This document shows positions 4,805 to 61,995 of a stretch of 64,000 bases of DNA, piece after piece. This DNA comes from an uncultured Marinoscillum sp. Its GTDB lineage: Bacteria; Bacteroidota; Bacteroidia; Cytophagales; MED-G16. The notes below the pieces were generated by a model. It was given only the letters and a program-made list of their open reading frames with translations. It had not been told where the DNA came from and did not search any database. How positions within the stretch are numbered: position 1 is the stretch's first letter; each line of letters starts with the position of its first letter. The position numbers and the translations under genes are program-made. The DNA is taken from the NCBI GenBank assembly GCA_902529805.1, contig CABZXU010000007.1, positions 877 to 64,876 on the forward strand. The letters are read 5' to 3'.

Positions 4805-5644
4805 ATGAAAAAATTATTATCATTAATCCTTTTTTTATCTTTTCTCACACTCGGAAACATCACTTTTGCTCAGGATGAAGTTATTGAAGATTCAGTTGAA
4901 TCTGTTTCAGACACATCCGCAGTTGTTGAAGAAGATTTAACTTCAGAATTTGTTGAAACTAATGAAGATGAAGAAGAAGAAATTATTTTTGAAGAAGAAG
5001 AATCACAAGGTTTCCATCAAGCAATTAAAGAACAGTTTATTCAAGGTGGATGGCAATTTATGGGTATTGTACTTTTATGCCTTATACTAGGTTTAGCAGT
5101 ATCAATAGAGAGAATTATTACTTTAAATTTAGCTACTACAGATACCAAGAAGTTATTATCAGATGTTGATGATGCTTTAAAAAACAAAGGTGGTGTAAAT
5201 GCTGCTAAAGAGATATGTAAAAATACTAGAGGTCCTGTAGCTTCAATTTTTACTCAGGGTCTTATGAGAGCTTCTGAGGGAATTGATATGGTAGAAAAAT
5301 CAATTATTTCATATGGTTCTGTTGAAATGGGAAAACTTGAAAAAGGAATGGTATGGATTTCACTCTTTATATCATTGGCACCTATGCTAGGTTTCATGGG
5401 TACAGTAATTGGTATGATTGGCGCTTTTGATGCTATTGCTGAAGCAGGAGATGTTTCTCCTTCATTAGTAGCGGGTGGAATTAAAATAGCATTATTGACA
5501 ACTGTAGGTGGTCTTATAGTTGCAGTTATACTTCAGTTATTTTACAATTATCTTGTATCTAAAATAGATTCTCTTGTAAATAATATGGAGGATGCATCAA
5601 TTTCATTAGTTGATATTTTAGTTAAAAATAAACTTTCTAAGTAA
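4805..5644 (+). CDS. MotA/TolQ/ExbB proton-channel family protein with a signal peptide and an acidic N-terminal extension
   Basis: C-terminal half has the ExbB-type TM region (LAPMLGFMGTVIGMI ... GGIKIALLTTVGGLIVA). After the signal peptide the N-terminus is about 50 residues rich in D/E. Confidence 0.8.
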   Translation: MKKLLSLILFLSFLTLGNITFAQDEVIEDSVESVSDTSAVVEEDLTSEFVETNEDEEEEIIFEEEESQGFHQAIKEQFIQGGWQFMGIVLLCLILGLAVSIERIITLNLATTDTKKLLSDVDDALKNKGGVNAAKEICKNTRGPVASIFTQGLMRASEGIDMVEKSIISYGSVEMGKLEKGMVWISLFISLAPMLGFMGTVIGMIGAFDAIAEAGDVSPSLVAGGIKIALLTTVGGLIVAVILQLFYNYLVSKIDSLVNNMEDASISLVDILVKNKLSK

Positions 5645-5983
5645 ATGTTATTTTTAGATATGATTGATATTGCACTATTCTCTGCTTATGGGTTAGTTAT
5701 AGTTGGAGCTCTTTTAGCTGTTGGGTTTCCTATCTACTTATCTTCAAAGAATCCAGCAAGCTTAAAAGAATCTGCTATGGCTTTTGCAGGATTACTTATC
5801 ATGTTTTTGGTTGGTTATTTGATATCTGGAAATGAAGTATTACCTACCTACATTGAATTTGGAGTAGATGCAGGATTATCAAAATTTATTGGTGGAATGA
5901 TTATTCTTGTTTATTTATTAGCTGGTGTAGCTATTGGAGGTATAATTTATTCTGAGTTTTCTAAAACTTTCAAAAATGGCTAG
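5645..5983 (+). CDS. small integral membrane protein, function unknown, inside the ExbB/ExbD cluster
   Basis: 112 aa with three hydrophobic segments. It abuts the exbB stop and overlaps the next gene by 8 nt. No recognisable motif. Confidence 0.5.
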   Translation: MLFLDMIDIALFSAYGLVIVGALLAVGFPIYLSSKNPASLKESAMAFAGLLIMFLVGYLISGNEVLPTYIEFGVDAGLSKFIGGMIILVYLLAGVAIGGIIYSEFSKTFKNG

Positions 5984-26814: not shown

Positions 26815-27518
26815 TTAATTAAAGAAATATTTTTTTTTCTAATATATTTTTTTTTATTTTCAAAAATTACCTCATACCATATAGAGTTATCATTAGATAT
26901 CTTTAATTTATTTCCCTTATTAATTATTGAATAAACATCTGATCCAGATGATGGTCCATTCATAATATATGTATTTTCTTTAGATATTATCCCCTCTTTT
27001 TTCATAAGATTTGTATTCATTACAATCAAAATAAGTGCTGAAATCATAATAAATCTTGTAAGACTACTTACAGATCGTATTTTTCCAATAATCAGATATA
27101 TTATTAGAAATACAACTAAAAGTGTATGAGTCAAATAAATATTTTTATTATAAAAATTAAGAATTAATGATAGGTCATTTTGTTCAAATCCAATAAGGTT
27201 ATTTTTTTTTGCAATAGATTTTATTTTAGTTGAAGTTTCTTTATTATGTGTTTGATTATAATGTTTTGATAAATAAATTAATGCTTTATCATAATTTCCT
27301 ATACCTTCTTCTATGAATGATAATTTTAATAACATAGCATCTGAAAAATAATTTTTTTCATAAAATAAATTTTCATATACTTTTTTAGCGTCAACATATT
27401 TTTTGAATTTAAACAATGAATCTCCTTTATTTAAAAGATCTTTTTCATTAGCAAAAATGTCCATCGAAATGAATATTAAAAAAAATATAAAAATTATAGT
27501 CTTAATTATCGAATTCAT
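26811..27518 (-). CDS. membrane protein with a TPR-like N-terminal region and a C-terminal SH3-like region
   Basis: Start moved to MNSIIKTIIF... (signal/anchor). TPR-like helices, two central TM segments, and a C-terminal SH3b-like GSDVYSIINKGNKLKI..WYEV. Start is uncertain; it still overlaps the upstream stop by 17 nt. Confidence 0.5.
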   Translation of the reverse strand: MNSIIKTIIFIFFLIFISMDIFANEKDLLNKGDSLFKFKKYVDAKKVYENLFYEKNYFSDAMLLKLSFIEEGIGNYDKALIYLSKHYNQTHNKETSTKIKSIAKKNNLIGFEQNDLSLILNFYNKNIYLTHTLLVVFLIIYLIIGKIRSVSSLTRFIMISALILIVMNTNLMKKEGIISKENTYIMNGPSSGSDVYSIINKGNKLKISNDNSIWYEVIFENKKKYIRKKNISLIN

Positions 27519-30102
27519 ATACGTTAAATGATTCTTCAAAATTTTCATTGGTTAATTTAAGATTTAATTTATACTTTCCTGCTGGAAGGTATTTGTTGTA
27601 ATGAATAAAGTAAGGTAAATCACTTTTGTTTTTTTCATATATAATATCCCATCTAAACTCATTGAATCCTTTTTTTGCATCAAATTTATATCTCCAAATC
27701 AAATCATTTTTATCATTATAAACCTCAGTTAAAACTTTTTCATTTTTGTTAATAAAAAATGAAATAGATAACTTTTCTGCTGTACTTGAAATTGGCTCTT
27801 TATGAGTATCATTTATTAAAGGTCTAGTTATATCACTTATAGGAAATAAAATATTTTTTTCTACTGATATTCCTTTTTTTATAGAATAATGAATCGGATT
27901 TAGATTTAGTTTGTAAATTCCTCTTCCATGAGTAGCAGCAATTAGATCCCCAGATTTTTCATCAATTATTAAATCTGAAATACTTACTGTAGGAAGATTT
28001 TTTCCAAGTATTGACCAAGAATTTCCTTTATCAAAAGAAATATAAACTCCTCTGTATAGCCCAGCATATAATATGTTTTCGAATTTTAAATCTTCTATAA
28101 TAATATTAGCAGGTTCATTTGGAAGGTTTGATTTTATACTTTTCCAATCTTTTCCATAATTTTCTGACATGTAGATATAATTTCCTAAATCATCGTAATT
28201 TATCCCGCTCATAGCCATATAAACTCTTGATTTAGAAAATTTTGAAGGATAAATACTTCTAATATAGTTGTCTTTAATATTTTTTGAATTTTCACTCCAA
28301 TTTTTACCATCGTCTTTGCTAACCCAAAAACTACCTTTATCCGAACCATAATATAATAATCCTTTTTGTAGTGATGACTCAGCTATAGCTCCAGCAGAAA
28401 ATGAATTTTTTTCTAAAATTTTTGATTTGGTAAGGTCTGGGCTAATTGAACTCCACGAATTTCCTTGATCAATTGTTTTCATTACGAAATTTCCGCCATG
28501 ATATAAGGTTTTATTATCATGAGGAGAGATAAAATAAGGTGTGATGAAATTATAATTTAATACATTTATATTTTCTTTTGATAGTTTAGGTTTTATAGAA
28601 ACTGACTTTCCGGTTTTCATATTTTTTCTTCTAATTGCGCCATTTTGCATGCTGAAGTAAACAATGCTAGGATCTATTGGGTCTACTTCAGTAACACATC
28701 CATCTCCTCCATCCCAAGCATCAATCCAAAGATATTTCCATTTATCTGAATATTTATTATTCCATTCTTTTGCTGGACCATAAACTGTTGCATCGTCTTG
28801 TGTTCCACCATAAATAAGATATGGTTCTTCATTACTAATTGTTATATCATAAAATTCACCGGCAGGTATGTTGTTATAGTGCATCCAACTTTCTCCTTTA
28901 TCATAACTTACAAATAGTCCTCCATCATTGCCTAAAGCAATATGTTTTGGATTTTTTGGATTAATCCATAATTCACAATGGTCAAGATGAAGAAACTTTG
29001 CATCACTTGGATTAATTCTTTTAACAGTTCCATAAAGATTGTTAAAAGTTTTACCACCATCCATGCTTTTTGCTATTCTTACTCCTAAAGAATAAATTTC
29101 CTCATCATCTTTCGGATTAACATAAATATCAGCAAAATACCAACCAATTCCAGGAAATATCATTAATTCATCTTCGTGTGTTCTTTTCCATAATTTTCCT
29201 CCATCTATAGTTTTATATACTTCTGCAGCTTCACTTCTATTTTTTGACAAATTATCTATTAAAGCGTATACTTTATTTGGATTTGAATATGAAACTGCTA
29301 ATCCTATTCTACCCATTTTTTTACCATAGGGTAATCCATTAATTAATTTTTCCCAATTATCACCGCCATCTGAACTTTTATAGATTCCACTATTCAATCC
29401 ACTTATTCCTGGATTATTTTCCCACATAGAAGCATATATTACTTCTGGATTAGAGTTAGAAATAACGATATCATTGGATCCAGTATTCTCATCAATATAT
29501 AGGACATGTTTCCATGATTTTCCACCATCTTCAGTTTTGTAAATACCTCTATTTACATTTTTTGACCAAAAATGGCCTAATACACTTACTAATACTATAT
29601 CTGGATTTGTAGGATGAACACTTATTTCTCCTATATGCCAAGAATCCTCTAACCCAATATGTTCCCATGTGTCACCTCCATTAGTAGACCTATACATCCC
29701 AGTTCCTGGCATTGTAAAGTTTCTTGCTTTTTTTAAACTTTCCCCAGTTCCAACATATATAATATTGGAATTTGATGGAGCTAGAGCTATATCTCCAATT
29801 CCAAGTGATGGTTGATTTTCAAATATTGGCTTCCACGTTATTCCATTATTTACAGTTTTCCATAAATTACCAGATCCAAATGCTACATACATTGTCCCTG
29901 GATTTTTTTCATCAACTTGAATTGATTCTACTCTTGCAGAATTTAAAACTGGCCCTAGGCTAATCCAATCTAAATGTATATTACTTTGATTTTTTAACTT
30001 AATATGTTCATGAAAAGAATTCACTAATGGTGATTCTTTTTGCTGAGAGTAAGAAGAATACAAATTAAAAAGAAGAATAGAAAGTATAATCAATCGTTTC
30101 AC
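27502..30102 (-). CDS. exported BNR/Asp-box repeat protein (VPS10/sortilin-like beta-propeller; often annotated as a glycosyl hydrolase)
   Basis: Signal peptide plus about 10 Asp-box motifs S-x-D-x-G-x-[ST]-W (STNGGDTWEH, TEDGGKSWKH, SSDGGDNWEK, SKDDGKNWSE and others); 866 aa. Confidence 0.8.
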   Translation of the reverse strand: MKRLIILSILLFNLYSSYSQQKESPLVNSFHEHIKLKNQSNIHLDWISLGPVLNSARVESIQVDEKNPGTMYVAFGSGNLWKTVNNGITWKPIFENQPSLGIGDIALAPSNSNIIYVGTGESLKKARNFTMPGTGMYRSTNGGDTWEHIGLEDSWHIGEISVHPTNPDIVLVSVLGHFWSKNVNRGIYKTEDGGKSWKHVLYIDENTGSNDIVISNSNPEVIYASMWENNPGISGLNSGIYKSSDGGDNWEKLINGLPYGKKMGRIGLAVSYSNPNKVYALIDNLSKNRSEAAEVYKTIDGGKLWKRTHEDELMIFPGIGWYFADIYVNPKDDEEIYSLGVRIAKSMDGGKTFNNLYGTVKRINPSDAKFLHLDHCELWINPKNPKHIALGNDGGLFVSYDKGESWMHYNNIPAGEFYDITISNEEPYLIYGGTQDDATVYGPAKEWNNKYSDKWKYLWIDAWDGGDGCVTEVDPIDPSIVYFSMQNGAIRRKNMKTGKSVSIKPKLSKENINVLNYNFITPYFISPHDNKTLYHGGNFVMKTIDQGNSWSSISPDLTKSKILEKNSFSAGAIAESSLQKGLLYYGSDKGSFWVSKDDGKNWSENSKNIKDNYIRSIYPSKFSKSRVYMAMSGINYDDLGNYIYMSENYGKDWKSIKSNLPNEPANIIIEDLKFENILYAGLYRGVYISFDKGNSWSILGKNLPTVSISDLIIDEKSGDLIAATHGRGIYKLNLNPIHYSIKKGISVEKNILFPISDITRPLINDTHKEPISSTAEKLSISFFINKNEKVLTEVYNDKNDLIWRYKFDAKKGFNEFRWDIIYEKNKSDLPYFIHYNKYLPAGKYKLNLKLTNENFEESFNVYEFDN

Positions 30103-30304: not shown

Positions 30305-31975
30305 ATGTGTGGAATATTTGCTTTATTTGATATAAATGATTCTCCTAATGATCTTATGAGAAAAAGATCTTTAGAAATGATCAAGTTAGTAAGACATAGA
30401 GGTCCTGATTGGTCTGGCATTTTCACTTCTCCTAATGCTATCTTAGCTCATGAGAGGTTATGTATTGTAGATATAAATTCAGGAAAACAACCTATAAAAT
30501 CTGAAAGTGAGGATATAATACTTTCAGTAAATGGTGAAATTTATAATCATAAAAACATTAGAAAAAATAAAAATATAAAATACAATTATCTTACTAATTC
30601 TGATTGTGAAGTTATTCTGTCACTATACCAAAATAAAGGTGTTAATTTTTTAAATGACTTGAATGGTATTTTTGCATTTGCTCTTTATGATGCGAAAAAA
30701 AATGAATACTTAATTGCTAGAGATCCTATTGGAGTCATTCCATTATATATTGGTTGGGATGAATATGACAATTTAAATGTTGCATCAGAGATGAAATCTC
30801 TTGTTAAATACTGTAAAAAAATAGAAGAGTTTCCTCCCGGACATTATTATTCAAGTAGAGATAAAAAATATACCAAATACTATAAAAAAGATTGGATGAG
30901 CTATAGTAATATTTCAGAAAATAAAACCTCTATCAGTTCTTTAAAACAAGCTCTTGAACAATCTGTAAAAAATCAGTTGATGTCAGATGTTCCTTTTGGC
31001 GTCCTTCTTTCAGGGGGATTAGACTCATCAATTATTGCTGCACTTGTGAAAAAGTTTTCTAAGAAAAGGATAGAATCTGATGATAAGAAAGATGCTTGGT
31101 GGCCACAAATACATTCTTTTGCAATTGGACTTGAAAACTCTCCTGACCTTGAAGCTTCCAGAGAGGCTGCAAATTATATTGGAACTGTTCACCATGAAAA
31201 AACCTTTACAATTCAAGAAGGTTTCGATGCAATAAGGGATGTGATTTATTTTCTTGAAACCTATGATGTTACAACAGTCAGAGCTTCGACTCCAATGTAT
31301 TTATTAGCAAGAATTATAAAATCTATGGGAATAAAAATGGTATTGTCAGGTGAAGGTGCTGATGAAATTTTTGGAGGATATCTTTATTTTCATAAGGCAC
31401 CAAATGCTAAAGAATTTCATGAAGAAACAGTAAGAAAATTGAATAAGTTACATTTATATGATTGTTTAAGGGCTAATAAATCAATGGCTGCGTGGGGTGT
31501 AGAGTGTAGAGTCCCATTTTTAGATAAAGATTTTCTAGATGTATCTATGGCTATAAACCCAAAAGACAAGATGATTGGATCAGAAAAAATGGAAAAATGG
31601 ATTTTAAGAAAAGCATTTGAAAATGAATTACCAAAAAATATTTTATGGAGACAAAAAGAACAGTTTTCTGATGGAGTAGGATATGGATGGATTGATTTTT
31701 TGAAAGAATATGTTGAATCAAATATATCTGATAAAGAATTTGATATAAGAAATAAAAAGTTTCCTATTAATACACCAAAGACAAAAGAAGAATATTATTA
31801 TAGAAATATCTTTGAGGAGTTTTATAAATCTAAATCTGCTATTAAAACTGTTCCTTCATCAAAATCTGTTGCTTGTAGTACAGAAGAAGCATTATTGTGG
31901 GATAAAGACTTTCAAAATCTTAATGATCCGTCTGGAAGAATTATATCTAATGTTCATAAAAAATCATATTTTTGA
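30305..31975 (+). CDS. asnB: asparagine synthase (glutamine-hydrolysing)
   Basis: MCGIF N-terminal nucleophile, and SGGLDSS pyrophosphatase loop (LLSGGLDSSIIAA); 556 aa. Confidence 0.92.
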   Translation: MCGIFALFDINDSPNDLMRKRSLEMIKLVRHRGPDWSGIFTSPNAILAHERLCIVDINSGKQPIKSESEDIILSVNGEIYNHKNIRKNKNIKYNYLTNSDCEVILSLYQNKGVNFLNDLNGIFAFALYDAKKNEYLIARDPIGVIPLYIGWDEYDNLNVASEMKSLVKYCKKIEEFPPGHYYSSRDKKYTKYYKKDWMSYSNISENKTSISSLKQALEQSVKNQLMSDVPFGVLLSGGLDSSIIAALVKKFSKKRIESDDKKDAWWPQIHSFAIGLENSPDLEASREAANYIGTVHHEKTFTIQEGFDAIRDVIYFLETYDVTTVRASTPMYLLARIIKSMGIKMVLSGEGADEIFGGYLYFHKAPNAKEFHEETVRKLNKLHLYDCLRANKSMAAWGVECRVPFLDKDFLDVSMAINPKDKMIGSEKMEKWILRKAFENELPKNILWRQKEQFSDGVGYGWIDFLKEYVESNISDKEFDIRNKKFPINTPKTKEEYYYRNIFEEFYKSKSAIKTVPSSKSVACSTEEALLWDKDFQNLNDPSGRIISNVHKKSYF

Positions 31976-32057
31976 TCAGTGAAAAATTATTTTGCTTTCT
32001 TATTATTATTTTTTTCTTTTAATTTATTTTCTCAAATATCATTACCAACTTTTCATG
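31939..32057 (+). repeat. direct repeat copy A: last ~37 nt of asnB, its stop, a GTG start and the signal-peptide/leader coding region
   Basis: Aligns by eye at about 85% identity with 32988-33106. Example: cataaaaaatcatatttttgatcagtgaaa versus cgataaaaaattatatttttgatatgtgaaa. The block ttttcttttaatttattttctcaaata is identical, followed by one mismatch (t vs g) and the identical block cattaccaactttt. Confidence 0.7.
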
Positions 32058-32971
32058 CTACCCAAAATCTAAAGTCAGTAGTTAATAATTTTCAAGTAGG
32101 TGATCCTTTAATTGTTGCTGGTGGTGGTGGTGGAGTTATTTATCAAGTTAACCCACATTCAGGAATGCATGCATCTATATCAGAAACTGGAAATAGTGGA
32201 AAAAATGGAACTGCTGGCGGTTCGAACGGCAATGGAGGAAGTTCTACTCGAGGAGGAGGGGGAGGAGGATTTCTGACTGATGGTGGACAGGATTCTAGAA
32301 GACCCGGAACTAAAGGAATAAGTTTTACTAATGGTGGTTTAGGAGGTAATGCGACTGATACAAATACAGGTGATGGAGGATTTGGAGGTGGAGGAGCTTC
32401 AATTCGAGTAAATAATAATATTGGTGATCAAGGTGCTGGAGGAGGAGGAGGTTACTCTGGAGGAGGAGGAGCGGGAGCAAATAATCAAAGTCACGGTGGT
32501 GGAGGTGGATCTTATAATAATGGAGCTAATCAAGTAAATGTGACTCATCCTAATGGAAATGTTGGACATGGAAAAGTTATTATAACTCAAGGTGGTTCGA
32601 CATGGACATTTACTACTTGTGGTGTGTCTGGAAGAACTGGACCCACTCAAAATCAATGTAACTCTTCTTATTCTGGTACTAATTTAACAGGAAATGTTAC
32701 TTTAGTTGATGGAATTCAACATTGGACTATTCCAGCTACTGCAACTTATACTATAAAAGCTTACGGAGCCTCTGGTGGCGATAATGGAAAAGACCCTAAT
32801 TGGAGTAGTTGTCCATATTTTTGTAGAGATGGGGGTCATGGTGCAATTATTCAAGGAGACTTTACTTTAGCTTCTGGTACAGTACTAAAAATACTTGTTG
32901 GTCATCACCCTGAAAATGTTAACTGGCTTAATGGAGGAGGAGGAGGAACCTTTGTAGTGTTATCAAATTAG
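31979..32971 (+). CDS. exported glycine-rich protein, ALK/LTK-type TNF-like/glycine-rich module in circularly permuted order
   Basis: GTG start 3 nt after the asnB stop, then a signal peptide. Residues ~41-203 look like the C-terminal half of the module (LIVAGGGGG ... GGFGGGG ... GGGGGYSGGG ... GHGKVIIT). Residues ~208-330 look like the N-terminal half (WTFTTCGVSGRTGPTQNQCNSSYSGTNL ... GIQHWTIPATATYTIKAYGASGG ... GTVLKILVG ... GGGGGTFVV). Confidence 0.75.
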   Translation: MKNYFAFLLLFFSFNLFSQISLPTFHATQNLKSVVNNFQVGDPLIVAGGGGGVIYQVNPHSGMHASISETGNSGKNGTAGGSNGNGGSSTRGGGGGGFLTDGGQDSRRPGTKGISFTNGGLGGNATDTNTGDGGFGGGGASIRVNNNIGDQGAGGGGGYSGGGGAGANNQSHGGGGGSYNNGANQVNVTHPNGNVGHGKVIITQGGSTWTFTTCGVSGRTGPTQNQCNSSYSGTNLTGNVTLVDGIQHWTIPATATYTIKAYGASGGDNGKDPNWSSCPYFCRDGGHGAIIQGDFTLASGTVLKILVGHHPENVNWLNGGGGGTFVVLSN

Positions 32972-32987
32972 TTATCTGTTATTTTCA

Positions 32988-33106
32988 AATTATATCAAAT
33001 TTCGATAAAAAATTATATTTTTGATATGTGAAACTTTATTTAATTCACTTATTATTATTATTTTCTTTTAATTTATTTTCTCAAATAGCATTACCAACTT
33101 TTTATG
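32988..33106 (+). repeat. direct repeat copy B: non-coding fossil of the asnB 3' end, then a GTG start and leader of the second glycine-rich gene
   Basis: See copy A. It retains an ...aaaaaattatatttttga... remnant of the asnB terminal codons and stop, just upstream of GTG 33028. Confidence 0.7.
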
Positions 33107-34011
33107 GAGCTTTAAGAGTATCAAATCAAAACCAGTTTCAAGGAACTTCTGCTACTTTTACAAATTGCGGTAAAACAGGTAAATTTGGTCCTTCTCAAGG
33201 AGATTGTAATTCTGAATATAGTGGAACAAACTTAGATGGGTTTGTTACCGTTTCTGGTGGTATTCAAGAATGGGAAGTTCCTGTAACCGGAACATACATC
33301 ATTACGGCATATGGAGCTCAAGGGGGTGGTCTTAGTGGGGGTAGTGATAGTGGAGGCAAAGGTGCTAAAATATCTGGAGAATTTAATTTAACTGCAGGAA
33401 CAGTATTAAAAATACTTGTAGGTCAGAAAGGTCTCACTGTTAATAAAGAAGCTTCTGGTGGTGGGGGAACTTTTGTAACTAAAAGTCCACATAATAATAA
33501 TGCTTCTATTCTTGTTGTAGCAGGTGGTGGTGGTGGTTCCTGGAATAACCATACAACTTCTCATGGTCAAGCAGGAGAATCAGGAAATGCTGGGTGTTGT
33601 GGTACTTCAAAAGGTCAAGGAGGATCAAATGGTAATGGAGGAGGTGGACAAGCTACATGTGCTTCAGATGGGGGAGCCGGTTTTTTTACTAATAATAATG
33701 TACTTACACATTGTGGTAATGGTGCTGAAAGAGAAGCTTTTGCATATGTTAATGGTGGAAGAGGTGGTCAAAATTATTGGTGTAGTGGCGCTGTTGGTGG
33801 TTTTGGTGGAGGAGGAGGAACAGCAAGATGTGCAGGTAATACTTATACTGGAGGAGGAGGAGGAGGATATTCAGGAGGAGGAATGGATTATCCTTATCAA
33901 AATGGTACACCAGGAGGAGCTGGAGGAGCTGGATCTAAAAATAATGGTAGCAATGCTACAAATGTCTCTGGGAATAATCCAGGCCATGGAAAAGTAGAAA
34001 TATCATGGTAA
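33028..34011 (+). CDS. exported glycine-rich protein, canonical-order ALK/LTK-type TNF-like + glycine-rich (polyglycine-II) module
   Basis: GTG start and a signal peptide. The ordered motifs are TFTNCGKTGKFGPSQGDCNSEYSGTNL, GIQEWEVPVTGTYIITAYGAQGG, GTVLKILVGQKG, SGGGGTFV, LVVAGGGGGS, GGFGGGGG, GGGGGGYSGGG and GHGKVEISW. Confidence 0.8.
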   Translation: MKLYLIHLLLLFSFNLFSQIALPTFYGALRVSNQNQFQGTSATFTNCGKTGKFGPSQGDCNSEYSGTNLDGFVTVSGGIQEWEVPVTGTYIITAYGAQGGGLSGGSDSGGKGAKISGEFNLTAGTVLKILVGQKGLTVNKEASGGGGTFVTKSPHNNNASILVVAGGGGGSWNNHTTSHGQAGESGNAGCCGTSKGQGGSNGNGGGGQATCASDGGAGFFTNNNVLTHCGNGAEREAFAYVNGGRGGQNYWCSGAVGGFGGGGGTARCAGNTYTGGGGGGYSGGGMDYPYQNGTPGGAGGAGSKNNGSNATNVSGNNPGHGKVEISW

Positions 34012-34018
34012 GAATATA

Positions 34019-36028
34019 TTAATTATTATCAGGTAGTGTGCTATATCTTTTTGCATATTCAATCATTTGTATTGCAAAACTTTCAGGTTGTTCTACTTTA
34101 ATATCTATAATTTCACCTTTATCATCTAATTCAGGAGTGAGAACTGGATTGATAAATCCACTATATGGAGCTGAAGTAAATTTTTCATTTCTTTTAAGGA
34201 TTTCTTTGTGTAGTTCTTGATCTATTTTTACTCCATAATTTTCAATTAAACTTTTTCCTGCTTCATAATCTCCTTCAGATTTAATCCTTTGGATTTCTCT
34301 TAAAAGCTCTCCAAATAAATCTCTTAATTTTTCATAATCGTTAATAACAAAATAAGTTTTATCATTTTCAACTATCTTTTCTATAACATTATCACTAAGT
34401 CCTTTTTCATAAACCCACTTGGAAACAGTTTGTCTATTTCTCATATGTGCTTGTTCTAAATCGTTACCAAGTTTGATTCTAATTAGCTGAGTCATTAACC
34501 CATTTCTTATATAACCATCATAACTTGTCCTACCCATATCTTTTGATGAAGGTGATATTCCGAGCTCTTCCATTTTTTTATCAACTATGAAATATAAGCC
34601 TACAAGATCTGCTCTAGCTTCTTCTAGAGATGATGCATAATTTTTTAATGTTTCTTTAGGTGTTCCAACCCCTTCAACTATTTGTCCACTAGCATGACCT
34701 ATAACTTCATGGAGTGCGGTATGAAGGTTATCTGCGTCTTTTCCATATTTTTTTTCTAATTCAATTTCTTCTTTGCTATATGCAAACTCTTCTAACCTAC
34801 CTGAGCTGCCTGCATTTCCGTAAGCATATAGTATATTTCCAAGGGATATTGACTTTGATCCATGATTTGCTCTAATCCAATTTGCATTAGGTAAATTAAT
34901 TCCAATTGGAGTTGAAGGTGATGCATCACCAGCTTCACCTGCTACGTTTACTGTGTTATAAGAAATACCTACAACATTCTTTTTCTTATGAGCATCCATA
35001 ATCGTTGAATTGTCTTCAAACCATTGAGCTTCACCAGAAATAGCTGACATTTTTTTGCTCATTTCAAAATCCTTTATTTGAACAACAGATTCATATGAGC
35101 CTCTATACCCTTTTGGATCATTATATACCTCTATGAATCCATTTATATAATCAACATCTCCATCTGTAGTTTCCACCCATGCAACATTGTAATCATCCCA
35201 AATTTTTAGATCACCAGTTTCATAATATTTAACAAGTAAATCTAAAGCATCAGCTTGTTTTTTGTTTTCAGCATATTTTTTTGCTAATTCAAGGTTATCA
35301 ATAATTTTTTCTATAGACTCACTATACATACCTCCCTTTTTCCAAACTTTTTCTTTCAAAACGCCATCCTCTTTTACAAGTTTAGAGTTTAATCCAAGTG
35401 ATATGGGTTTATTAGAATCTGGAACTTTAATATTATTATAGAAATTATCAACATCTTCCTCTGTAACATCTGAACCATAAAAATTAACTGAAGATCCGAG
35501 AACAATTCCTTTACTCTTATTTTTATTAACCTTTTTAGAATCAACGTCATTAAATATTAAATCAAATACTTCATCATTTAATTTGGTATTGGTTTCATCC
35601 ATTAAATTTTTTAAATATTCTACAGAAAAATCAGGGTCAAATTTATCATTTGAATAGTGATGATGAATTCCATTAGAAAACCATATTCGTTTTAAATATA
35701 TCTTAAAAGATTCCCATCTTTTATCATTTTTATCACCATTATAGATCAAATAAATATTTTCTAGGGCTCTTCTTATTTTTAAATTGTGCCTGTAATTCTG
35801 ATCATACATTATATCTCTTCCATAAAGTCCAGCTTCAGTCAAATAATAGACGAACTTTTTTTGATTTAAAGTTAATTTATCAAAACCTGGAATTTTATAT
35901 CTTAAAATTTTTAAATCAGAAAATTGCTCTGAAAAATGAGAAAACTCACTTTTTTCTTCTTGACTGATATTACAAGAAAATATTAAAAAAAAGATAACAA
36001 ATGAGAAAACTAATTTTTTTGATTTCAT
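34019..36028 (-). CDS. dipeptidyl-peptidase III-like metallopeptidase (family M49), exported
   Basis: HEVIGH zinc motif and downstream EEARADLVGLY second motif. Signal/lipoprotein N-terminus (FLIFSC); 669 aa. Confidence 0.85.
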   Translation of the reverse strand: MKSKKLVFSFVIFFLIFSCNISQEEKSEFSHFSEQFSDLKILRYKIPGFDKLTLNQKKFVYYLTEAGLYGRDIMYDQNYRHNLKIRRALENIYLIYNGDKNDKRWESFKIYLKRIWFSNGIHHHYSNDKFDPDFSVEYLKNLMDETNTKLNDEVFDLIFNDVDSKKVNKNKSKGIVLGSSVNFYGSDVTEEDVDNFYNNIKVPDSNKPISLGLNSKLVKEDGVLKEKVWKKGGMYSESIEKIIDNLELAKKYAENKKQADALDLLVKYYETGDLKIWDDYNVAWVETTDGDVDYINGFIEVYNDPKGYRGSYESVVQIKDFEMSKKMSAISGEAQWFEDNSTIMDAHKKKNVVGISYNTVNVAGEAGDASPSTPIGINLPNANWIRANHGSKSISLGNILYAYGNAGSSGRLEEFAYSKEEIELEKKYGKDADNLHTALHEVIGHASGQIVEGVGTPKETLKNYASSLEEARADLVGLYFIVDKKMEELGISPSSKDMGRTSYDGYIRNGLMTQLIRIKLGNDLEQAHMRNRQTVSKWVYEKGLSDNVIEKIVENDKTYFVINDYEKLRDLFGELLREIQRIKSEGDYEAGKSLIENYGVKIDQELHKEILKRNEKFTSAPYSGFINPVLTPELDDKGEIIDIKVEQPESFAIQMIEYAKRYSTLPDNN

Positions 36029-60804: not shown

Positions 60805-61995
60805 CTACAGACCATTATTTTGTGTTACCCCTATACAATAATATCCATCATTTAGGTTAACACTTGAAAACACAACATTATCGCTATTGATTATGTTGTT
60901 AGCAGTTCTCACGATAGAAAAATCTCCTGAAGTATTAGATCTATATAATAATTTGTAATGTGTTACTGGGTTTACTGTTAATAAATTATTTCCTGTAACA
61001 TCTCTAATATCAAATATCATTGTTGTTGAATTGACCGCACCAGTTTCATCGGTATTCCAAATTCTTTTTGATCGTCTAACTACTCCAGCAGGAAGATCAG
61101 AAGTAGAAGAGCTAGATAGATTGTTATTTCCAAAAACAACAAAGTTTTCTTCTGCCAAAATACTTGATACACTCATAGTCAATCCATTTGAAGGTTGAGA
61201 AGCATTTGTTCCTGTCATCCTCCACAACCCTTCAATATCTGTTTCATAATCATCATTTAAGAAACCTATTGGAACGTATGAATCTACCCAATCATTGCTG
61301 TTCATTCCACCTGTCATCGATCCATTTTTTGAATTAGTACTATTATCTGTTAGTGTAGTTCCTGAACCATTACTCATTTTATAATATGCTTTGAGATTAC
61401 TTTCATTACCTTCTAATTCTTTGAACATATTCGATTTTATTTCTGTTGCAGTTCTTGCATCATTCCAAATTCTCAGTTCATCAATTTTCCCATCTATAGT
61501 AAGGCTTCCATTAGCTTTACCAATATACTTCCAATATAATTTTGCATTTGAAAGATTTTTTGTTCCTTTAGATGCTCCATTTACAAACAATTCAACATTG
61601 TTATTTTTACCAACCCATACAACATGCTCCCACTTACCAATTGATGTAATATAATTCCATTTCCAATCGGTATTTCCAAATTTTGTGATGCCAAGTTTAT
61701 GAGTATTATTCCACTGCTCTAGTTTTAGAGCCCAACATCCTGAACCACATCTCCAAAGAAGATTAGCTCCATTATTATTTGATGCTCTTTCATACCAAAC
61801 TTCTACAGTCCATGGAGGGTTCAAATCTGAACCATTGATTTGAATATTATCTCCATTTCCATCAAATTCTAGAGCATAATTAACAAATGGAATTGGCGGA
61901 TCGGGTTTTTGTATTCCATGAAATGTTGGAAGAGAAATTTGAGATAACAGATTATTGAATGTTAATAAAAATAAAAATATAATATAATATTTCAT
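60805..61995 (-). CDS. exported LamG/concanavalin-A-like (Laminin_G_3) domain protein sharing the QISLPTFHG leader
   Basis: Signal peptide. ALEFDGNGDNIQI ... GKIDELRIWNDARTATEI is typical of LamG-type lectin folds. The C-terminal ~170 aa are unassigned. Confidence 0.7.
   Translation of the reverse strand: MKYYIIFLFLLTFNNLLSQISLPTFHGIQKPDPPIPFVNYALEFDGNGDNIQINGSDLNPPWTVEVWYERASNNNGANLLWRCGSGCWALKLEQWNNTHKLGITKFGNTDWKWNYITSIGKWEHVVWVGKNNNVELFVNGASKGTKNLSNAKLYWKYIGKANGSLTIDGKIDELRIWNDARTATEIKSNMFKELEGNESNLKAYYKMSNGSGTTLTDNSTNSKNGSMTGGMNSNDWVDSYVPIGFLNDDYETDIEGLWRMTGTNASQPSNGLTMSVSSILAEENFVVFGNNNLSSSSTSDLPAGVVRRSKRIWNTDETGAVNSTTMIFDIRDVTGNNLLTVNPVTHYKLLYRSNTSGDFSIVRTANNIINSDNVVFSSVNLNDGYYCIGVTQNNGL

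What the first reader, a model, noticed from the sequence alone, without database searches (positions are those of the whole stretch)
31979..34011. Tandem pair of exported bacterial proteins collinear with the ALK/LTK TNF-like + glycine-rich (polyglycine-II) ligand-binding module
Seen in sequence: two adjacent ~330-aa ORFs with signal peptides and very high Gly content.

The second (33028-34011) reads, in order: TFTNCGKTGKFGPSQGDCNSEYSGTNL / GIQEWEVPVTGTYIITAYGAQGG / GTVLKILVGQKG / SGGGGTFV / LVVAGGGGGS / GGFGGGGG / GGGGGGYSGGG / GHGKVEISW.

From memory, the human ALK ectodomain reads: [26 protein letters not shown] / [23 protein letters not shown] / DMLYILVGQQG / GGGGGGGATYVF / LIIAAGGGGR / GGFGGGGGGC / GGGGGGYIGG / GHGEVNIKHY.

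The order and approximate spacing are the same, including the Cys-bracketed CG..G..GP.Q..C opening. In animals this TNF-like/Gly-rich supradomain is the cytokine (ALKAL)-binding unit of the receptor kinases ALK and LTK, and its Gly runs form a lattice of polyglycine-II helices. Glycine-rich relatives exist in bacteria (Pfam Gly_rich / ALK-LTK GRD family), but as far as I know their function is uncharacterised.

Here the module is the whole mature protein, with no kinase, anchor or T9SS tag visible. It is duplicated and sits in an operon-like position 3 nt after asnB. Inference: a secreted or periplasmic binding or structural protein. A PGII-lattice surface could also act as an ice- or surface-binding face, which is speculative.
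Basis: partly seen in the sequence, partly recalled or inferred. Interest (0 to 1): 0.85.

Follow-up and report, generated by a model that had tools for sequence, protein, structure and literature searches.

The report
ALK-like binding modules, one circularly permuted
Two neighbouring genes of a marine Bacteroidota bacterium encode small exported proteins predicted to share the fold of the ligand-binding part of the human ALK receptor; one has its two halves in swapped order (a natural circular permutation), and both carry an N-terminal tag shared with many lectin-like proteins.

Summary
Both ORFs are real, intact and under purifying selection. They have signal peptides and are 24-25% glycine.

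ORF2 (33028-34011) is a full-length, collinear homologue of the ALK/LTK TNF-like + glycine-rich (TG) module. It matches ALK/LTK chains by sequence at E about 1e-14. Its AlphaFold2 model (pLDDT 89) hits only ALK/LTK in the PDB (E 3.5e-15, TM 0.5-0.68).

ORF1 (31979-32971) is not collinear. It is an exact circular permutant: signal peptide, then the glycine-rich C-half, then the TNF-like N-half. This order is kept in nine other 90%-identity protein clusters (64-96% identity, dN/dS 0.2-0.4). It also occurs without ORF2 in a single-cell genome, and the model is confident (pLDDT 88, pTM 0.84). The closest unpermuted relatives are 74-84% identical, and one sits at the same osmC-adjacent position as a permuted one.

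The family itself is already catalogued (Pfam PF12810). It is very large: 3663 clusters at 50% identity, including phage virion proteins and giant tandem arrays.

Both proteins begin with a conserved mature N-terminus, Q-I-A-L-P-T-F-Q-A-V-H. In marine metagenomes the same tag precedes PA14, LamG, SPRY, fibrinogen-like, FG-GAP and DUF4082 domains.

Best reading: tagged, exported binding heads encoded in a strain-variable cassette locus. I found no evidence for a link to asnB or for ice binding.

The parts
31979..32971 (+). ORF1 (330 aa, GTG start): exported, circularly permuted TG module (order C-half then N-half)
   Evidence: ORF listed. Half-by-half match to ALK. HMM architecture 'CN'. Conserved in P0121-P0129. 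AF2 model pLDDT 87.7, pTM 0.84. dN/dS 0.20-0.39.
31979..32098 (+). ORF1 signal peptide (res 1-18) and leader tag QISLPTFHATQNLKSVVNNFQVGD (res 19-40)
   Evidence: Sequence. Leader statistics. Predicted helix 2-16, then pLDDT <50 for residues 19-35.
32099..32593 (+). ORF1 C-half (res 41-205). It runs from PLIVAGGGGG through GGFGGGG and GGGGGYSGGGG to GHGKVIITQ, i.e. the glycine-rich subdomain plus the last TNF-like strand. Here it is placed first.
   Evidence: Matches C-half HMM positions 5-166. Aligns to ALK chain residues 188-313. tblastn coordinates.
32594..32968 (+). ORF1 N-half (res 206-330). It runs from GSTWTFTTCG..GP.Q..C through GIQHW and KILVG to GGGGGTFVVLSN, then the stop codon. This is the TNF-like half, here placed last.
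   Evidence: Matches N-half HMM positions 2-113. E = 3.6e-18 to ALK 7nwz residues 35-134. Foldseek aligns this half to ALK at rmsd 1.9-3.6 A and 40-44% identity.
33028..34011 (+). ORF2 (327 aa, GTG start): exported, collinear TG module. Signal peptide res 1-18; leader QIALPTFYGALRVSNQNQFQ res 19-38; N-half res 39-155 (33142-33492); C-half res 156-327 (33493-34008).
   Evidence: AF2 pLDDT 89.3, pTM 0.86. Foldseek PDB hits are exclusively ALK/LTK. dN/dS 0.15-0.42.
31939..32057 (+). Copy 1 of a 119-nt direct repeat: last ~40 nt of asnB, the GTG start and the signal-peptide/leader codons of ORF1
   Evidence: Family D2, 86% identity, spacing 1049 nt. Alignment.
32988..33106 (+). Copy 2 of the 119-nt repeat: a relic of the asnB 3' end in the ORF1-ORF2 spacer plus the ORF2 start/signal peptide/leader. 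It marks how ORF2 was added to the locus.
   Evidence: ORF2 and this copy are absent in L008, where the order is asnB-CN-M49.
60805..61995 (-). Third gene in the window with the same signal peptide plus leader tag (MKYYIIFLFLLTFNNLLSQISLPTFHGIQKP...). Its passenger is a Laminin_G_3 (ConA-like lectin) domain.
   Evidence: Pfam PF13385 E = 1e-16.

Best explanation
ORF1 and ORF2 are functional genes for small Sec-exported proteins of a streamlined, low-GC marine Bacteroidota. The closest genome is labelled 'uncultured Marinoscillum sp.' SAG AH-324-A18.

Build of the mature proteins (shown). Each consists of (i) a conserved N-terminal peptide that begins at the Gln exposed by signal peptidase I, (ii) a short low-complexity linker, and (iii) one TG module. 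The TG module is a TNF-like beta-sandwich packed on a glycine-rich array predicted to form polyglycine-II helices, homologous to the ligand-binding unit of ALK/LTK.

Topology (shown). ORF2 has the ancestral order, N-half then C-half. ORF1 is a natural circular permutant of a sister paralogue. The chain starts in the loop between '...GGGGGTFVxxS' and 'PLIxAGGGGG'. It runs through the glycine-rich half to the old C-terminal strand (GHGKVIIT), crosses a 4-5 residue turn (QGGS) into the old N-terminal strand (TWTFTTCG), and ends after 'GGGGGTFVVLSN'.

Origin (inferred). The permutation arose by the duplication/fusion-then-truncation route. Tandem genes and tandem NCNC modules, which already contain a contiguous C-to-N junction, are common in the family.

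Function (inferred). The modules are binding heads (adhesin or lectin-like) that share one export or tethering route specified by the N-terminal tag. They sit in a strain-variable cassette locus that evolves by recombination at the conserved 5' leader region.
For: Homology and fold:
- Sequence match to ALK/LTK chains at E 1e-14 to 4e-18.
- PF12810 scores above the Pfam cutoff for ORF1.
- The ORF2 model has pLDDT 89.3, and its only significant PDB neighbours are 21 ALK/LTK chains.

Permutation:
- Both half-HMMs match ORF1 at full length in the order C then N.
- Ten CN proteins share identical break points and the junction GHGKVIITQGGSTWTFT.
- The secondary-structure order of the ORF1 model is a cyclic rotation of ORF2's, with a C-strand/N-strand hairpin at residues 199-211.
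- Foldseek, a sequential aligner, recovers ALK over only half the length.

ORF1 is functional:
- dN/dS is 0.20-0.39 with dS up to 1.1.
- It was assembled independently in a Tara metagenome, an NCBI metagenome assembly and a SAG.
- The CN gene stands alone between asnB and the M49 peptidase gene in L008.

Recent origin:
- The unpermuted relatives P0022 and P0052 are 74-84% identical. The clade CN + P0022 + P0052 has 200/200 bootstrap support.
- P0127 (CN) and P0052 (NC) both follow osmC; the OsmC proteins are 77% identical.
- NCNC arrays with 3-5 residue C-to-N junctions exist.

Export:
- Both proteins have signal peptides ending before Gln, which fits the Bacteroidetes Q-rule (PMC5837995).
- ORF1 has 4 and ORF2 has 8 cysteines.

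Binding role:
- The same tag precedes PA14/GLEYA, Laminin_G_3, SPRY, Fibrinogen_C, FG-GAP and DUF4082 passengers.
- Elsewhere the module is fused to T9SS C-terminal domains, pilin N-termini, and cadherin, PKD or HYR domains.
- It also occurs in phage proteins. One is annotated 'virion structural protein', and another lies beside structural genes.

Cassette behaviour:
- The 119-nt repeat.
- Presence/absence and order changes between strains.
- Mosaic alleles: the N-half of P0124 is 99% identical to ORF1 but its C-half only 69%.
Against: - No ligand, localisation or expression data exist. The binding role rests on association.
It is inferred from full-length Foldseek alignments and high pLDDT in regions that are neither helix nor strand.
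- ORF2 scores below the Pfam gathering cutoff (17.6 vs 24.5 bits).
- The ORF1 model rests on a shallow alignment for its N-half (11-18 sequences).
- A single origin of the permutation is not resolved by the tree. The CN proteins are monophyletic in only 46 of 200 bootstraps.
- The tag has no demonstrated function and is low-confidence in both models.
Confidence: 0.6

Rival explanations
1. ORF1 is a non-functional rearrangement product, either a pseudogene left by recombination between tandem paralogues or an assembly chimera. Only ORF2 would be a real gene.
For: - The halves are in an unusual order.
- A 119-nt repeat flanks the gene.
- Repetitive GGN-rich DNA is prone to misassembly.
- ORF1 ends only 16 nt before the repeat.
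Against: - The same order, break points and stop are present in nine other 90%-identity clusters, representing 1-89 member sequences each, down to 64% identity.
- dN/dS is 0.20-0.39 at dS up to 1.1.
- Independent assemblies include a SAG in which ORF1 is the only family gene at the locus.
- Both half-HMMs are complete.
- The single-domain model is confident.
Confidence: 0.04
2. The CN protein does not fold on itself. Instead, the C-half of one chain pairs with the N-half of the next (run-on domain swap), building filaments or a surface lattice.
For: - A permuted order with a very short (4-5 residue) C-to-N connection is also what tandem arrays have.
- The monomer model cannot exclude intermolecular pairing.
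- The break point lies between two adjacent structural elements.
Against: - The AF2 monomer closes the domain with pTM 0.84 and forms a tight hairpin at the junction.
- All elements of one module are present exactly once.
- No multimer prediction could be run.
Confidence: 0.1
3. The proteins are ice-binding or antifreeze proteins that use the flat polyglycine-II face, as in snow-flea antifreeze protein.
For: - There is a predicted PGII-rich region.
- The sequences come from marine samples.
- PGII bundles can bind ice (snow-flea AFP is listed among PPII-bundle proteins in PMC13243192).
Against: - The family is fused to adhesin-type domains and occurs in phage proteins.
- Proteins sharing the tag carry lectin-type domains.
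- From my own knowledge of the ALK structures, one face of the lattice is covered by the TNF-like sandwich.
Confidence: 0.04
4. The genes form a functional operon with asnB, for example in a role linked to asparagine or cell-wall metabolism.
For: - A 3-nt gap separates the asnB stop from the ORF1 start, and both are on the same strand.
- This synteny is kept in L005, L007 and L008.
Against: - Close relatives sit after osmC (L006, L016) or after cpn10/LamG (L001-L004).
- The asnB tail was copied along with the leader in front of ORF2, which suggests that it carries the genes' own 5' control region.
- The neighbours are unrelated housekeeping genes.
Confidence: 0.05
5. The pair is phage-derived (tail-fibre or receptor-binding genes of a prophage remnant) rather than cellular.
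For: - PHROG families match at E 8e-32.
- 66 viral models match at E<=1e-3.
- A cyanophage homologue lies next to structural genes.
Against: - Both proteins have Sec signal peptides with the Bacteroidetes Q-rule site.
- The flanking genes are asnB, an M49 peptidase and a BNR/sortilin protein, with no phage genes among the neighbours examined.
- Apart from the Gly-codon effect, base composition matches the host.
- The tag is shared with many cellular proteins.
Confidence: 0.03

Closest known systems
ALK / LTK TNF-like + glycine-rich (TG) supradomain (PDB 7nwz, 7nx0, 7nx1, 7n00, 7lrz, 7mzy; C. elegans SCD-2 7lir)
   Same: - Same motif order in ORF2.
- About 45% identity in the N-terminal ~100 residues and 26-29% over the full structural alignment.
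- The Cys-bracketed CG..G..GP.Q..C loop is present.
- It is the unique structural neighbour in the PDB.
   Different: - No EGF-like, transmembrane or kinase parts, and no MAM/LDLa domains.
- A stand-alone ~300-residue exported protein.
- ORF1 has permuted chain connectivity.
- The ligand is certainly different; no ALKAL-like gene is involved.
Pfam PF12810 (ALK_LTK_GRD), i.e. the 'glycine-rich domain-containing protein' of bacteria, phages and giant viruses
   Same: - ORF1 passes the gathering cutoff.
- Many homologues carry the precomputed PF12810 annotation.
- NCBI names one homologue 'glycine rich domain-containing protein' (Psychroflexus planctonicus).
   Different: - This subfamily also has the complete TNF-like N-half with the Cys loop.
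- More typical members (for example the 318-aa gene at L001 3814-4770) lack that loop.
- The CN order was seen only in one 50%-identity cluster among the best 150 of 3663 matching clusters.
Natural circular permutants of beta-sandwich or lectin folds. From my own knowledge: C2-domain topologies I and II, concanavalin A versus favin, swaposin.
   Same: - Termini that are neighbours in the fold are joined.
- A new break is opened in a surface loop.
- The route via tandem duplication is plausible.
   Different: - Here the unpermuted form is still 74-84% identical.
- It occurs at the same osmC-adjacent position as a permuted form.
- Tandem-array intermediates coexist in the same family.
Other polyglycine-II bundle proteins: phage S16 gp38 adhesin tip and snow-flea antifreeze protein
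   Same: - Gly-rich PGII helices serve as a rigid scaffold.
- gp38 is a receptor-binding tip (PMC13243192; PMC12892980, listed).
   Different: No sequence or fold match was detected. The PDB search returned only ALK/LTK. These are analogues, not homologues.
Bacteroidota sorting signals: the T9SS C-terminal domain (PF18962) and the Q-rule at signal peptidase I sites
   Same: - Some relatives (P0130 and others) carry a T9SS C-terminal domain.
- The window proteins obey the Q-rule.
   Different: - The window proteins have no C-terminal domain.
- Instead they have a conserved N-terminal peptide, QIALPTFQAVH.
- NCBIfam and Pfam returned no match over this peptide, and the motif string ALPTFQ was found in no paper.

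Membership tests
ALK/LTK TG supradomain (homologous superfamily) | Significant sequence similarity to ALK/LTK ectodomains outside the glycine runs | tested here: met
   ORF2 gives E = 1.3e-14 and ORF1 gives E = 3.6e-18. The best stretch covers the non-Gly N-terminal ~100 residues.
ALK/LTK TG supradomain (homologous superfamily) | Predicted fold: TNF-like beta-sandwich plus glycine-rich subdomain, superposable on solved ALK/LTK structures | tested here: met
   ORF2 model (pLDDT 89.3) versus the PDB gives 21 hits, all ALK/LTK/SCD-2. E is 3.5e-15 to 9e-8, TM 0.47-0.68, over 324-359 aligned columns. The next hit is at E>2.
ALK/LTK TG supradomain (homologous superfamily) | Hexagonal lattice of polyglycine-II helices (14 PPII segments listed for ALK in PMC13243192) | tested here: inconclusive
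   The Gly-rich region is modelled with pLDDT 84-98 and almost no helix or strand, and it aligns to the ALK glycine-rich region in Foldseek.
ALK/LTK TG supradomain (homologous superfamily) | Chain order: N-terminal TNF-like strands, then the glycine-rich insert, then the C-terminal TNF-like strand | tested here: not met
   Met for ORF2 and not met for ORF1, which has the order C-half then N-half. ORF1 is therefore filed as a permuted variant, not a canonical member.
ALK/LTK receptor tyrosine kinases (the receptors themselves) | EGF-like module, transmembrane helix and intracellular kinase; activation by ALKAL cytokines | tested here: not met
   The proteins are 327 and 330 aa and end at the module boundary. 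Pfam finds nothing else. Ligand binding is not testable with these tools.
Pfam PF12810 ALK_LTK_GRD | Whole-protein score at or above the gathering cutoff of 24.5 bits | tested here: met
   ORF1 scores 29.0 bits (met). ORF2 scores 17.6 bits (below the cutoff), although it is clearly homologous by the other tests.
Natural circular permutation | All structural elements present once, in cyclically rotated order relative to homologues, with old termini joined by a short linker | tested here: met
   C-HMM positions 5-166 are followed by N-HMM positions 2-113 with a 4-residue gap. The break points match the P0022 sequence ...FVVLSD|NTPLII.... The secondary-structure order of the two models is rotated.
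Natural circular permutation | The permuted form is a stable, selected gene rather than an accident | tested here: met
   Ten proteins at 64-96% identity share the order. dN/dS is 0.20-0.39. The gene was recovered from a metagenome, an NCBI metagenome assembly and a SAG.
Natural circular permutation | Three-dimensional superposition of the permuted and unpermuted forms with a permutation-aware aligner | not testable with these tools
   Model coordinates cannot be exported. Foldseek is sequential and aligns only one half.
T9SS cargo | C-terminal sorting domain (PF18962 or type B) | tested here: not met
   No match in ORF1 or ORF2. The domain is present in the relative P0130.
Sec/SPI substrates obeying the Bacteroidetes Q-rule | Signal peptide followed by Gln at +1 | tested here: met
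   ...NLFS|QISLPTF and ...NLFS|QIALPTF. The Gln lies at residue 16-20 in 86 of the 96 family proteins that carry the tag. The rule is described in PMC5837995. The cleavage itself is inferred.

The most novel reading that the evidence does not exclude
The conserved mature N-terminus (pyro)Q-I-A-L-P-T-F-Q-A-V-H-K-P, with the variant Q-I-L-P-S-x-H-G-V-H-x-K-K, followed by a Ser/Thr/Gly linker, may be a previously undescribed N-terminal sorting or tethering signal of planktonic marine Bacteroidota.

It would mark a whole repertoire of small secreted single-domain binding proteins: TG modules in both chain orders, divergent glycine-rich domains, PA14/GLEYA, LamG, SPRY, fibrinogen-like, FG-GAP and DUF4082. 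On this reading the tag delivers or docks them to the cell surface by a route distinct from T9SS C-terminal domains and lipoprotein export signals.

Its conserved 5' DNA would also serve as the recombination handle that shuffles, duplicates and, in one case, permuted these cassettes.
Probability: 0.35. Interest if true: 0.75.

Novelty: new variant of a known kind. Interest (0 to 1): 0.55.

Why it matters
1. Protein evolution. The fold known from the ALK/LTK cytokine-binding unit appears to tolerate circular permutation in nature. The unpermuted form (74-84% identical), the tandem-array intermediates and the permuted product are all still present. One permuted and one unpermuted gene even occupy the same osmC-adjacent position. 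That makes a compact model for how permutations arise, and it suggests where the TG scaffold can be opened for engineering.

2. ALK biology. The module is placed in its wider context: thousands of bacterial, phage and giant-virus members, typically in adhesin or virion settings. This is relevant to the ancestral function and origin of the ALK ligand-binding domain.

3. Microbiology. The shared N-terminal tag on many lectin-like passengers, if it proves to be a sorting or tethering signal, would be a new export or display route in abundant ocean Bacteroidota. It would also be a practical handle for cataloguing their surface-recognition repertoire.

Tried and rejected
- A fragment alignment (A4), meant to deepen the ORF1 alignment, was misaligned by MAFFT. 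Glycine-rich tails were pulled onto the N-half, so it was discarded.
ORF1 was therefore modelled from A3, which is shallow over the N-half.
- A profile search with the leader alone returned only 47-77 aa fragments (the first attempt was too short).
- My first regex-based split of the halves was too strict. I replaced it with half-HMMs.
- The sigma-70 promoter and terminator scan was uninformative, at or near shuffled expectation. Bacteroidota promoters are not covered by that tool.
- Literature searches found no description of bacterial ALK-like TG proteins, of their permutation, or of the motif string ALPTFQ. The two 2021 Nature structure papers looked up (De Munck et al., Reshetnyak et al.) are not held. 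Statements about strand neighbours in ALK are therefore from my own knowledge.
- NCBIfam returned nothing.
- Rejected readings: pseudogene or assembly artefact, asnB operon, prophage origin and ice binding (see the rival explanations).


Full report
**1. The observation**

The window holds two + strand ORFs at exactly the stated coordinates: 31979-32971 (330 aa) and 33028-34011 (327 aa). Both start with GTG. They lie downstream of an asparagine synthase gene (30305-31975) and converge on an M49 peptidase gene (34019-36028, minus strand).

Both proteins begin with a typical signal peptide (MKNYFAFLLLFFSFNLFS|Q and MKLYLIHLLLLFSFNLFS|Q). They are 24.2% and 25.4% glycine, and carry 4 and 8 cysteines respectively. 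GC content rises to 38.5% over 32-34 kb, against 23-33% in the other 2-kb bins of the window, which I attribute to the GGN codons. The window holds only these two copies of the module.

**2. Is the ALK resemblance real?**

Yes.
- phmmer against all PDB chains returns ALK, LTK and the worm homologue SCD-2 as the only significant matches. ORF2 reaches E = 1.3e-14 and ORF1 E = 3.6e-18.
- The scoring stretch is the non-glycine N-terminal ~100 residues (TFTxCG..G..GP.Q..C ... GIQxW.VP.T.TY ... KILVGQ), so this is not a composition artefact.
- Pfam PF12810 (ALK_LTK_GRD) is the only family hit. ORF1 scores 29 bits, above the 24.5-bit cutoff. ORF2 scores 17.6 bits, below it.
- An AlphaFold2 model of ORF2 built from 114 homologues has mean pLDDT 89.3 and pTM 0.86. 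The glycine-rich part has pLDDT 84-98 but almost no helix or strand, as expected for polyglycine-II segments.
- Foldseek against the PDB gives 21 significant hits, every one an ALK, LTK or SCD-2 ectodomain. E ranges from 3.5e-15 to 9e-8, TM from 0.47 to 0.68, over 324-359 aligned columns. The next hit has E>2.

**3.

In ORF1, residues 41-205 align with the C-terminal half of ALK/ORF2 (PLIVAGGGGG ... GGFGGGG ... GGGGGYSGGGG ... GHGKVIIT). Residues 206-330 align with the N-terminal half (TWTFTTCG ... GIQHW ... KILVG ... GGGGGTFVVLSN, then the stop).

With half-HMMs built from the collinear family, ORF1 matches C-positions 5-166 and then N-positions 2-113, with four residues between them. Nothing is missing and nothing is duplicated.

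Comparison with the closest unpermuted relative P0022 (...GGGGGTFVVLSD|NTPLIIGGGGGG...GHGKIEISW*) shows three things:
- The new termini lie in one loop.
- The old C-terminal strand is joined to the old N-terminal strand through 'QGGS'.
- The N-half was removed in frame right after the leader.

**4. The permutant is a real, selected protein**

- Nine further 90%-identity clusters (P0121-P0129, representing 1 to 89 member sequences each) have the same order, the same junction and the same C-terminal end, at 64-96% identity.
- Pairwise dN/dS between the window gene and orthologues from a Tara metagenome contig (L005), an NCBI metagenome-assembly contig (L007), a single-cell genome (L008) and a more distant contig (L006) is 0.20-0.39, with dS up to 1.1. 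ORF2 gives 0.15-0.42.
- The AF2 model of ORF1 has pLDDT 87.7 and pTM 0.84 as one compact domain. It was built from whole natural sequences only, with a depth of 11-18 over the N-half. Its secondary-structure elements are a cyclic rotation of those of ORF2. The old last strand (199-204) and the old first strand (207-211) form a hairpin.
- As expected for a permutant searched with a sequential aligner, Foldseek again finds only ALK as significant, but over 105-139 columns (rmsd 1.9-3.6 A, 40-44% identity).
- I could not run a permutation-aware superposition because coordinates are not exposed.

**5. How and when the permutation arose**

Among the 207 family proteins collected at that point, 184 are NC, 10 are CN and about a dozen are multi-module (NCNC, NCN, CNC). 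An exhaustive search of 1.84 billion representative proteins finds 3663 clusters at 50% identity (1655 at E<=1e-10). Many are giant proteins of 2000-5500 aa with up to 12 matched stretches. In these, ORF1 aligns contiguously across a C-to-N junction. Among the 150 best hits listed, the only full-length stand-alone CN protein is P0125, which represents that one cluster.

The raw material for 'permutation by duplication' is therefore abundant, and the stand-alone permutant looks like a rare and probably recent product.
- The clade CN + P0022 + P0052 has 200/200 bootstrap support. The unpermuted pair is 74-76% (N-half) and 79-84% (C-half) identical to ORF1.
- Monophyly of the CN proteins is not resolved (46 of 200 bootstraps). 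Identical break points argue for one event. Mosaic alleles show that recombination blurs the tree: P0124 has an N-half 99% identical to ORF1 but a C-half only 69% identical.
- One CN gene (P0127, L006) and one NC gene (P0052, L016) both lie directly downstream of osmC. The OsmC proteins are 77% identical.

**6. The locus is a variable cassette site, not an asnB operon**

- Window, L005 and L007: asnB - CN - NC - M49 peptidase.
- SAG contig L008 ('uncultured Marinoscillum sp. AH-324-A18', ORF1 95% identical): asnB - CN - M49, with no ORF2.
- L015: another NC gene - mosaic CN - M49.
- L001-L003: cpn10 - LamG - glycine-rich domain gene - P0002 - P0022. L004 lacks two of these genes.

In the window, a 119-nt direct repeat (31939-32057 and 32988-33106, 86% identical) copies the last ~40 nt of asnB plus the start, signal peptide and leader in front of ORF2. 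The passenger parts of the two genes are only 36-52% identical. I infer that ORF2 was added, or its 5' end converted, by recombination through the conserved leader region.

**7. The shared N-terminal tag**

Directly after the predicted cleavage site, both proteins read Q-I-(S/A)-L-P-T-F. The site has Gln at +1, which fits the Bacteroidetes Q-rule (PMC5837995).

- Of 149 stand-alone-sized family members, 96 carry this motif within their first 60 residues, 86 of them at residue 16-20. The consensus is INA|QIALPTFQAVHKP, or GYS|QILPxxHGVHxKK. Only 2 of 158 larger proteins carry it.
- Neighbouring genes with unrelated passengers carry the same signal peptide and tag: an SPRY protein in L006, a LamG protein in L001, and a third gene in the window (60805-61995, minus strand, Laminin_G_3).
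These gave 84 motif-containing ORFs. Twenty-eight are TG-type (21 NC, 2 CN, the rest truncated). Forty-nine ORFs with at least 60 residues after the motif have no TG match; most of these have other passengers and a few look like chance motif matches.
- Ten of the non-TG passengers were scanned against Pfam. The hits were PA14/GLEYA, FG-GAP, DUF4082, Fibrinogen_C, Laminin_G_3, a divergent ALK_LTK_GRD and a weak, below-cutoff ThuA match. Three had no Pfam match.
- Synonymous codons vary at every position: 57 distinct DNA versions among the 77 matches that read QI[A/S]LPTF. The two residues beyond the search pattern are still conserved (V in 52 of 77; H or Q in 71 of 77). Conservation is therefore at the peptide level.
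- The tag is low-confidence in both models. NCBIfam and Pfam returned no match over it, and the motif string ALPTFQ was found in no paper.

**8. What the proteins most likely do**

Shown:
- Both proteins have Sec signal peptides and an intact TG fold.
- Both genes are under purifying selection.
- The genes are strain-variable.

Inferred: they are exported binding heads.
- The tag is shared mostly with classical lectin or recognition domains.
- In other bacteria the module is fused to T9SS sorting domains, pilin-type N-termini, and cadherin, PKD, HYR or Ig domains.
- In phages it matches three or four PHROG families per protein, all of unknown function, and 66 BFVD models. One of those models is annotated 'virion structural protein'. 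A Synechococcus phage homologue lies beside structural genes.
- In ALK the same unit binds a protein ligand (established knowledge of the solved complexes 7nwz, 7n00 and 7nx0, which were listed).

The ligand here is unknown. I found nothing that supports ice binding or a metabolic link to asnB.

**9. Comparison with what is known, and novelty**

ORF2 is a new member of a catalogued but uncharacterised family (PF12810; the 'glycine-rich domain-containing proteins'). It is a homologue of the ALK/LTK TG supradomain, not a receptor kinase. ORF1 fails the chain-order criterion of that supradomain while keeping every element, so I file it as a circularly permuted variant.

I found no published description of bacterial TG proteins, of a permuted form, or of the leader motif string in the library searched.

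**10. Verdict**

The homology is right. 'Collinear pair' is wrong for ORF1.
- The natural permutation, with its close unpermuted relatives, and the widely shared N-terminal tag are the new and testable points.
- Overall interest is 0.55, and the novelty class is 'new variant of a known kind'.

Noticed in passing
window 31979-32098, 33028-33141 and 60805-61995 (-); loci L001, L006, L017-L096: A conserved mature N-terminal peptide, Q-I-(A/S)-L-P-T-F-(Q/H)-(A/G)-V-H, follows the signal peptide and precedes a Ser/Thr/Gly linker. It is shared by proteins with many unrelated passenger domains: TG, divergent glycine-rich domain, PA14/GLEYA, LamG, SPRY, fibrinogen-like, FG-GAP and DUF4082. NCBIfam and Pfam returned no match over it. 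It may be a sorting or tethering tag.
   Followed up: partly
window 31939-32057 and 32988-33106: A 119-nt direct repeat (86% identity) places a relic of the last asnB codons in the ORF1-ORF2 spacer. Both copies contain TATTTTTG about 4 nt (5 nt in the ORF2 copy) before the GTG start, which fits the Bacteroidetes -7 promoter consensus TAnnTTTG (consensus from my own knowledge). In a 27% GC genome this may be chance.
   Followed up: partly
L008 4001-4993 vs window; L015; L001-L004: Gene content at the locus differs between close strains. The SAG AH-324-A18 has asnB-CN-M49 with no ORF2. L015 has a different NC gene upstream of a mosaic CN allele. L004 lacks two of the three family genes present in L001. 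This is typical of a flexible surface-protein island.
   Followed up: yes
proteins P0206-P0319: The family includes giant proteins of 2000-5500 aa with up to 12 matched stretches, i.e. long tandem arrays of TG modules.
   Followed up: no
proteins P0046, P0175, P0191, P0194, P0202: Reef-coral proteins (Pocillopora, Porites, Oculina, Stylophora), some with EGF or PAN domains, are 38-44% identical to the bacterial module over the part that aligns (36-50% of the query). These are non-ALK metazoan members, which bears on ancient origin versus horizontal transfer.
   Followed up: no
L014 (Synechococcus phage S-SZBM1, locus 4896-5771) and BFVD hits: Cyanophage and other phage proteins carry the module. 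Several are auto-named 'receptor protein-tyrosine kinase', which looks like annotation transfer from the ALK domain. The S-SZBM1 gene lies two genes downstream of two large 'structural protein' genes.
   Followed up: partly
window 32399-32656 (-) and 33524-33997 (+): Overlapping 85-aa and 157-aa ORFs inside the two genes have low-complexity S/T-rich or V/E-rich translations. They are most likely by-products of the GGN-rich coding frame, not genes.
   Followed up: no
window 31979 and 33028; L005, L006, L007, L008: Both genes start with GTG, as do all four ORF1 orthologues examined (first codon translated as V).
   Followed up: no
window 27502-30102 (-): An 866-aa exported BNR/Sortilin-Vps10 repeat protein lies upstream of asnB, and this arrangement is kept in L005. 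It is another 'animal-like' extracellular domain in this small genome.
   Followed up: no
L096 3344 onward; L017; L019: Among the tag-bearing passengers are a fibrinogen C-terminal-like domain, a PA14/GLEYA lectin domain and an FG-GAP propeller. Three of the ten scanned had no Pfam match at all.
   Followed up: partly
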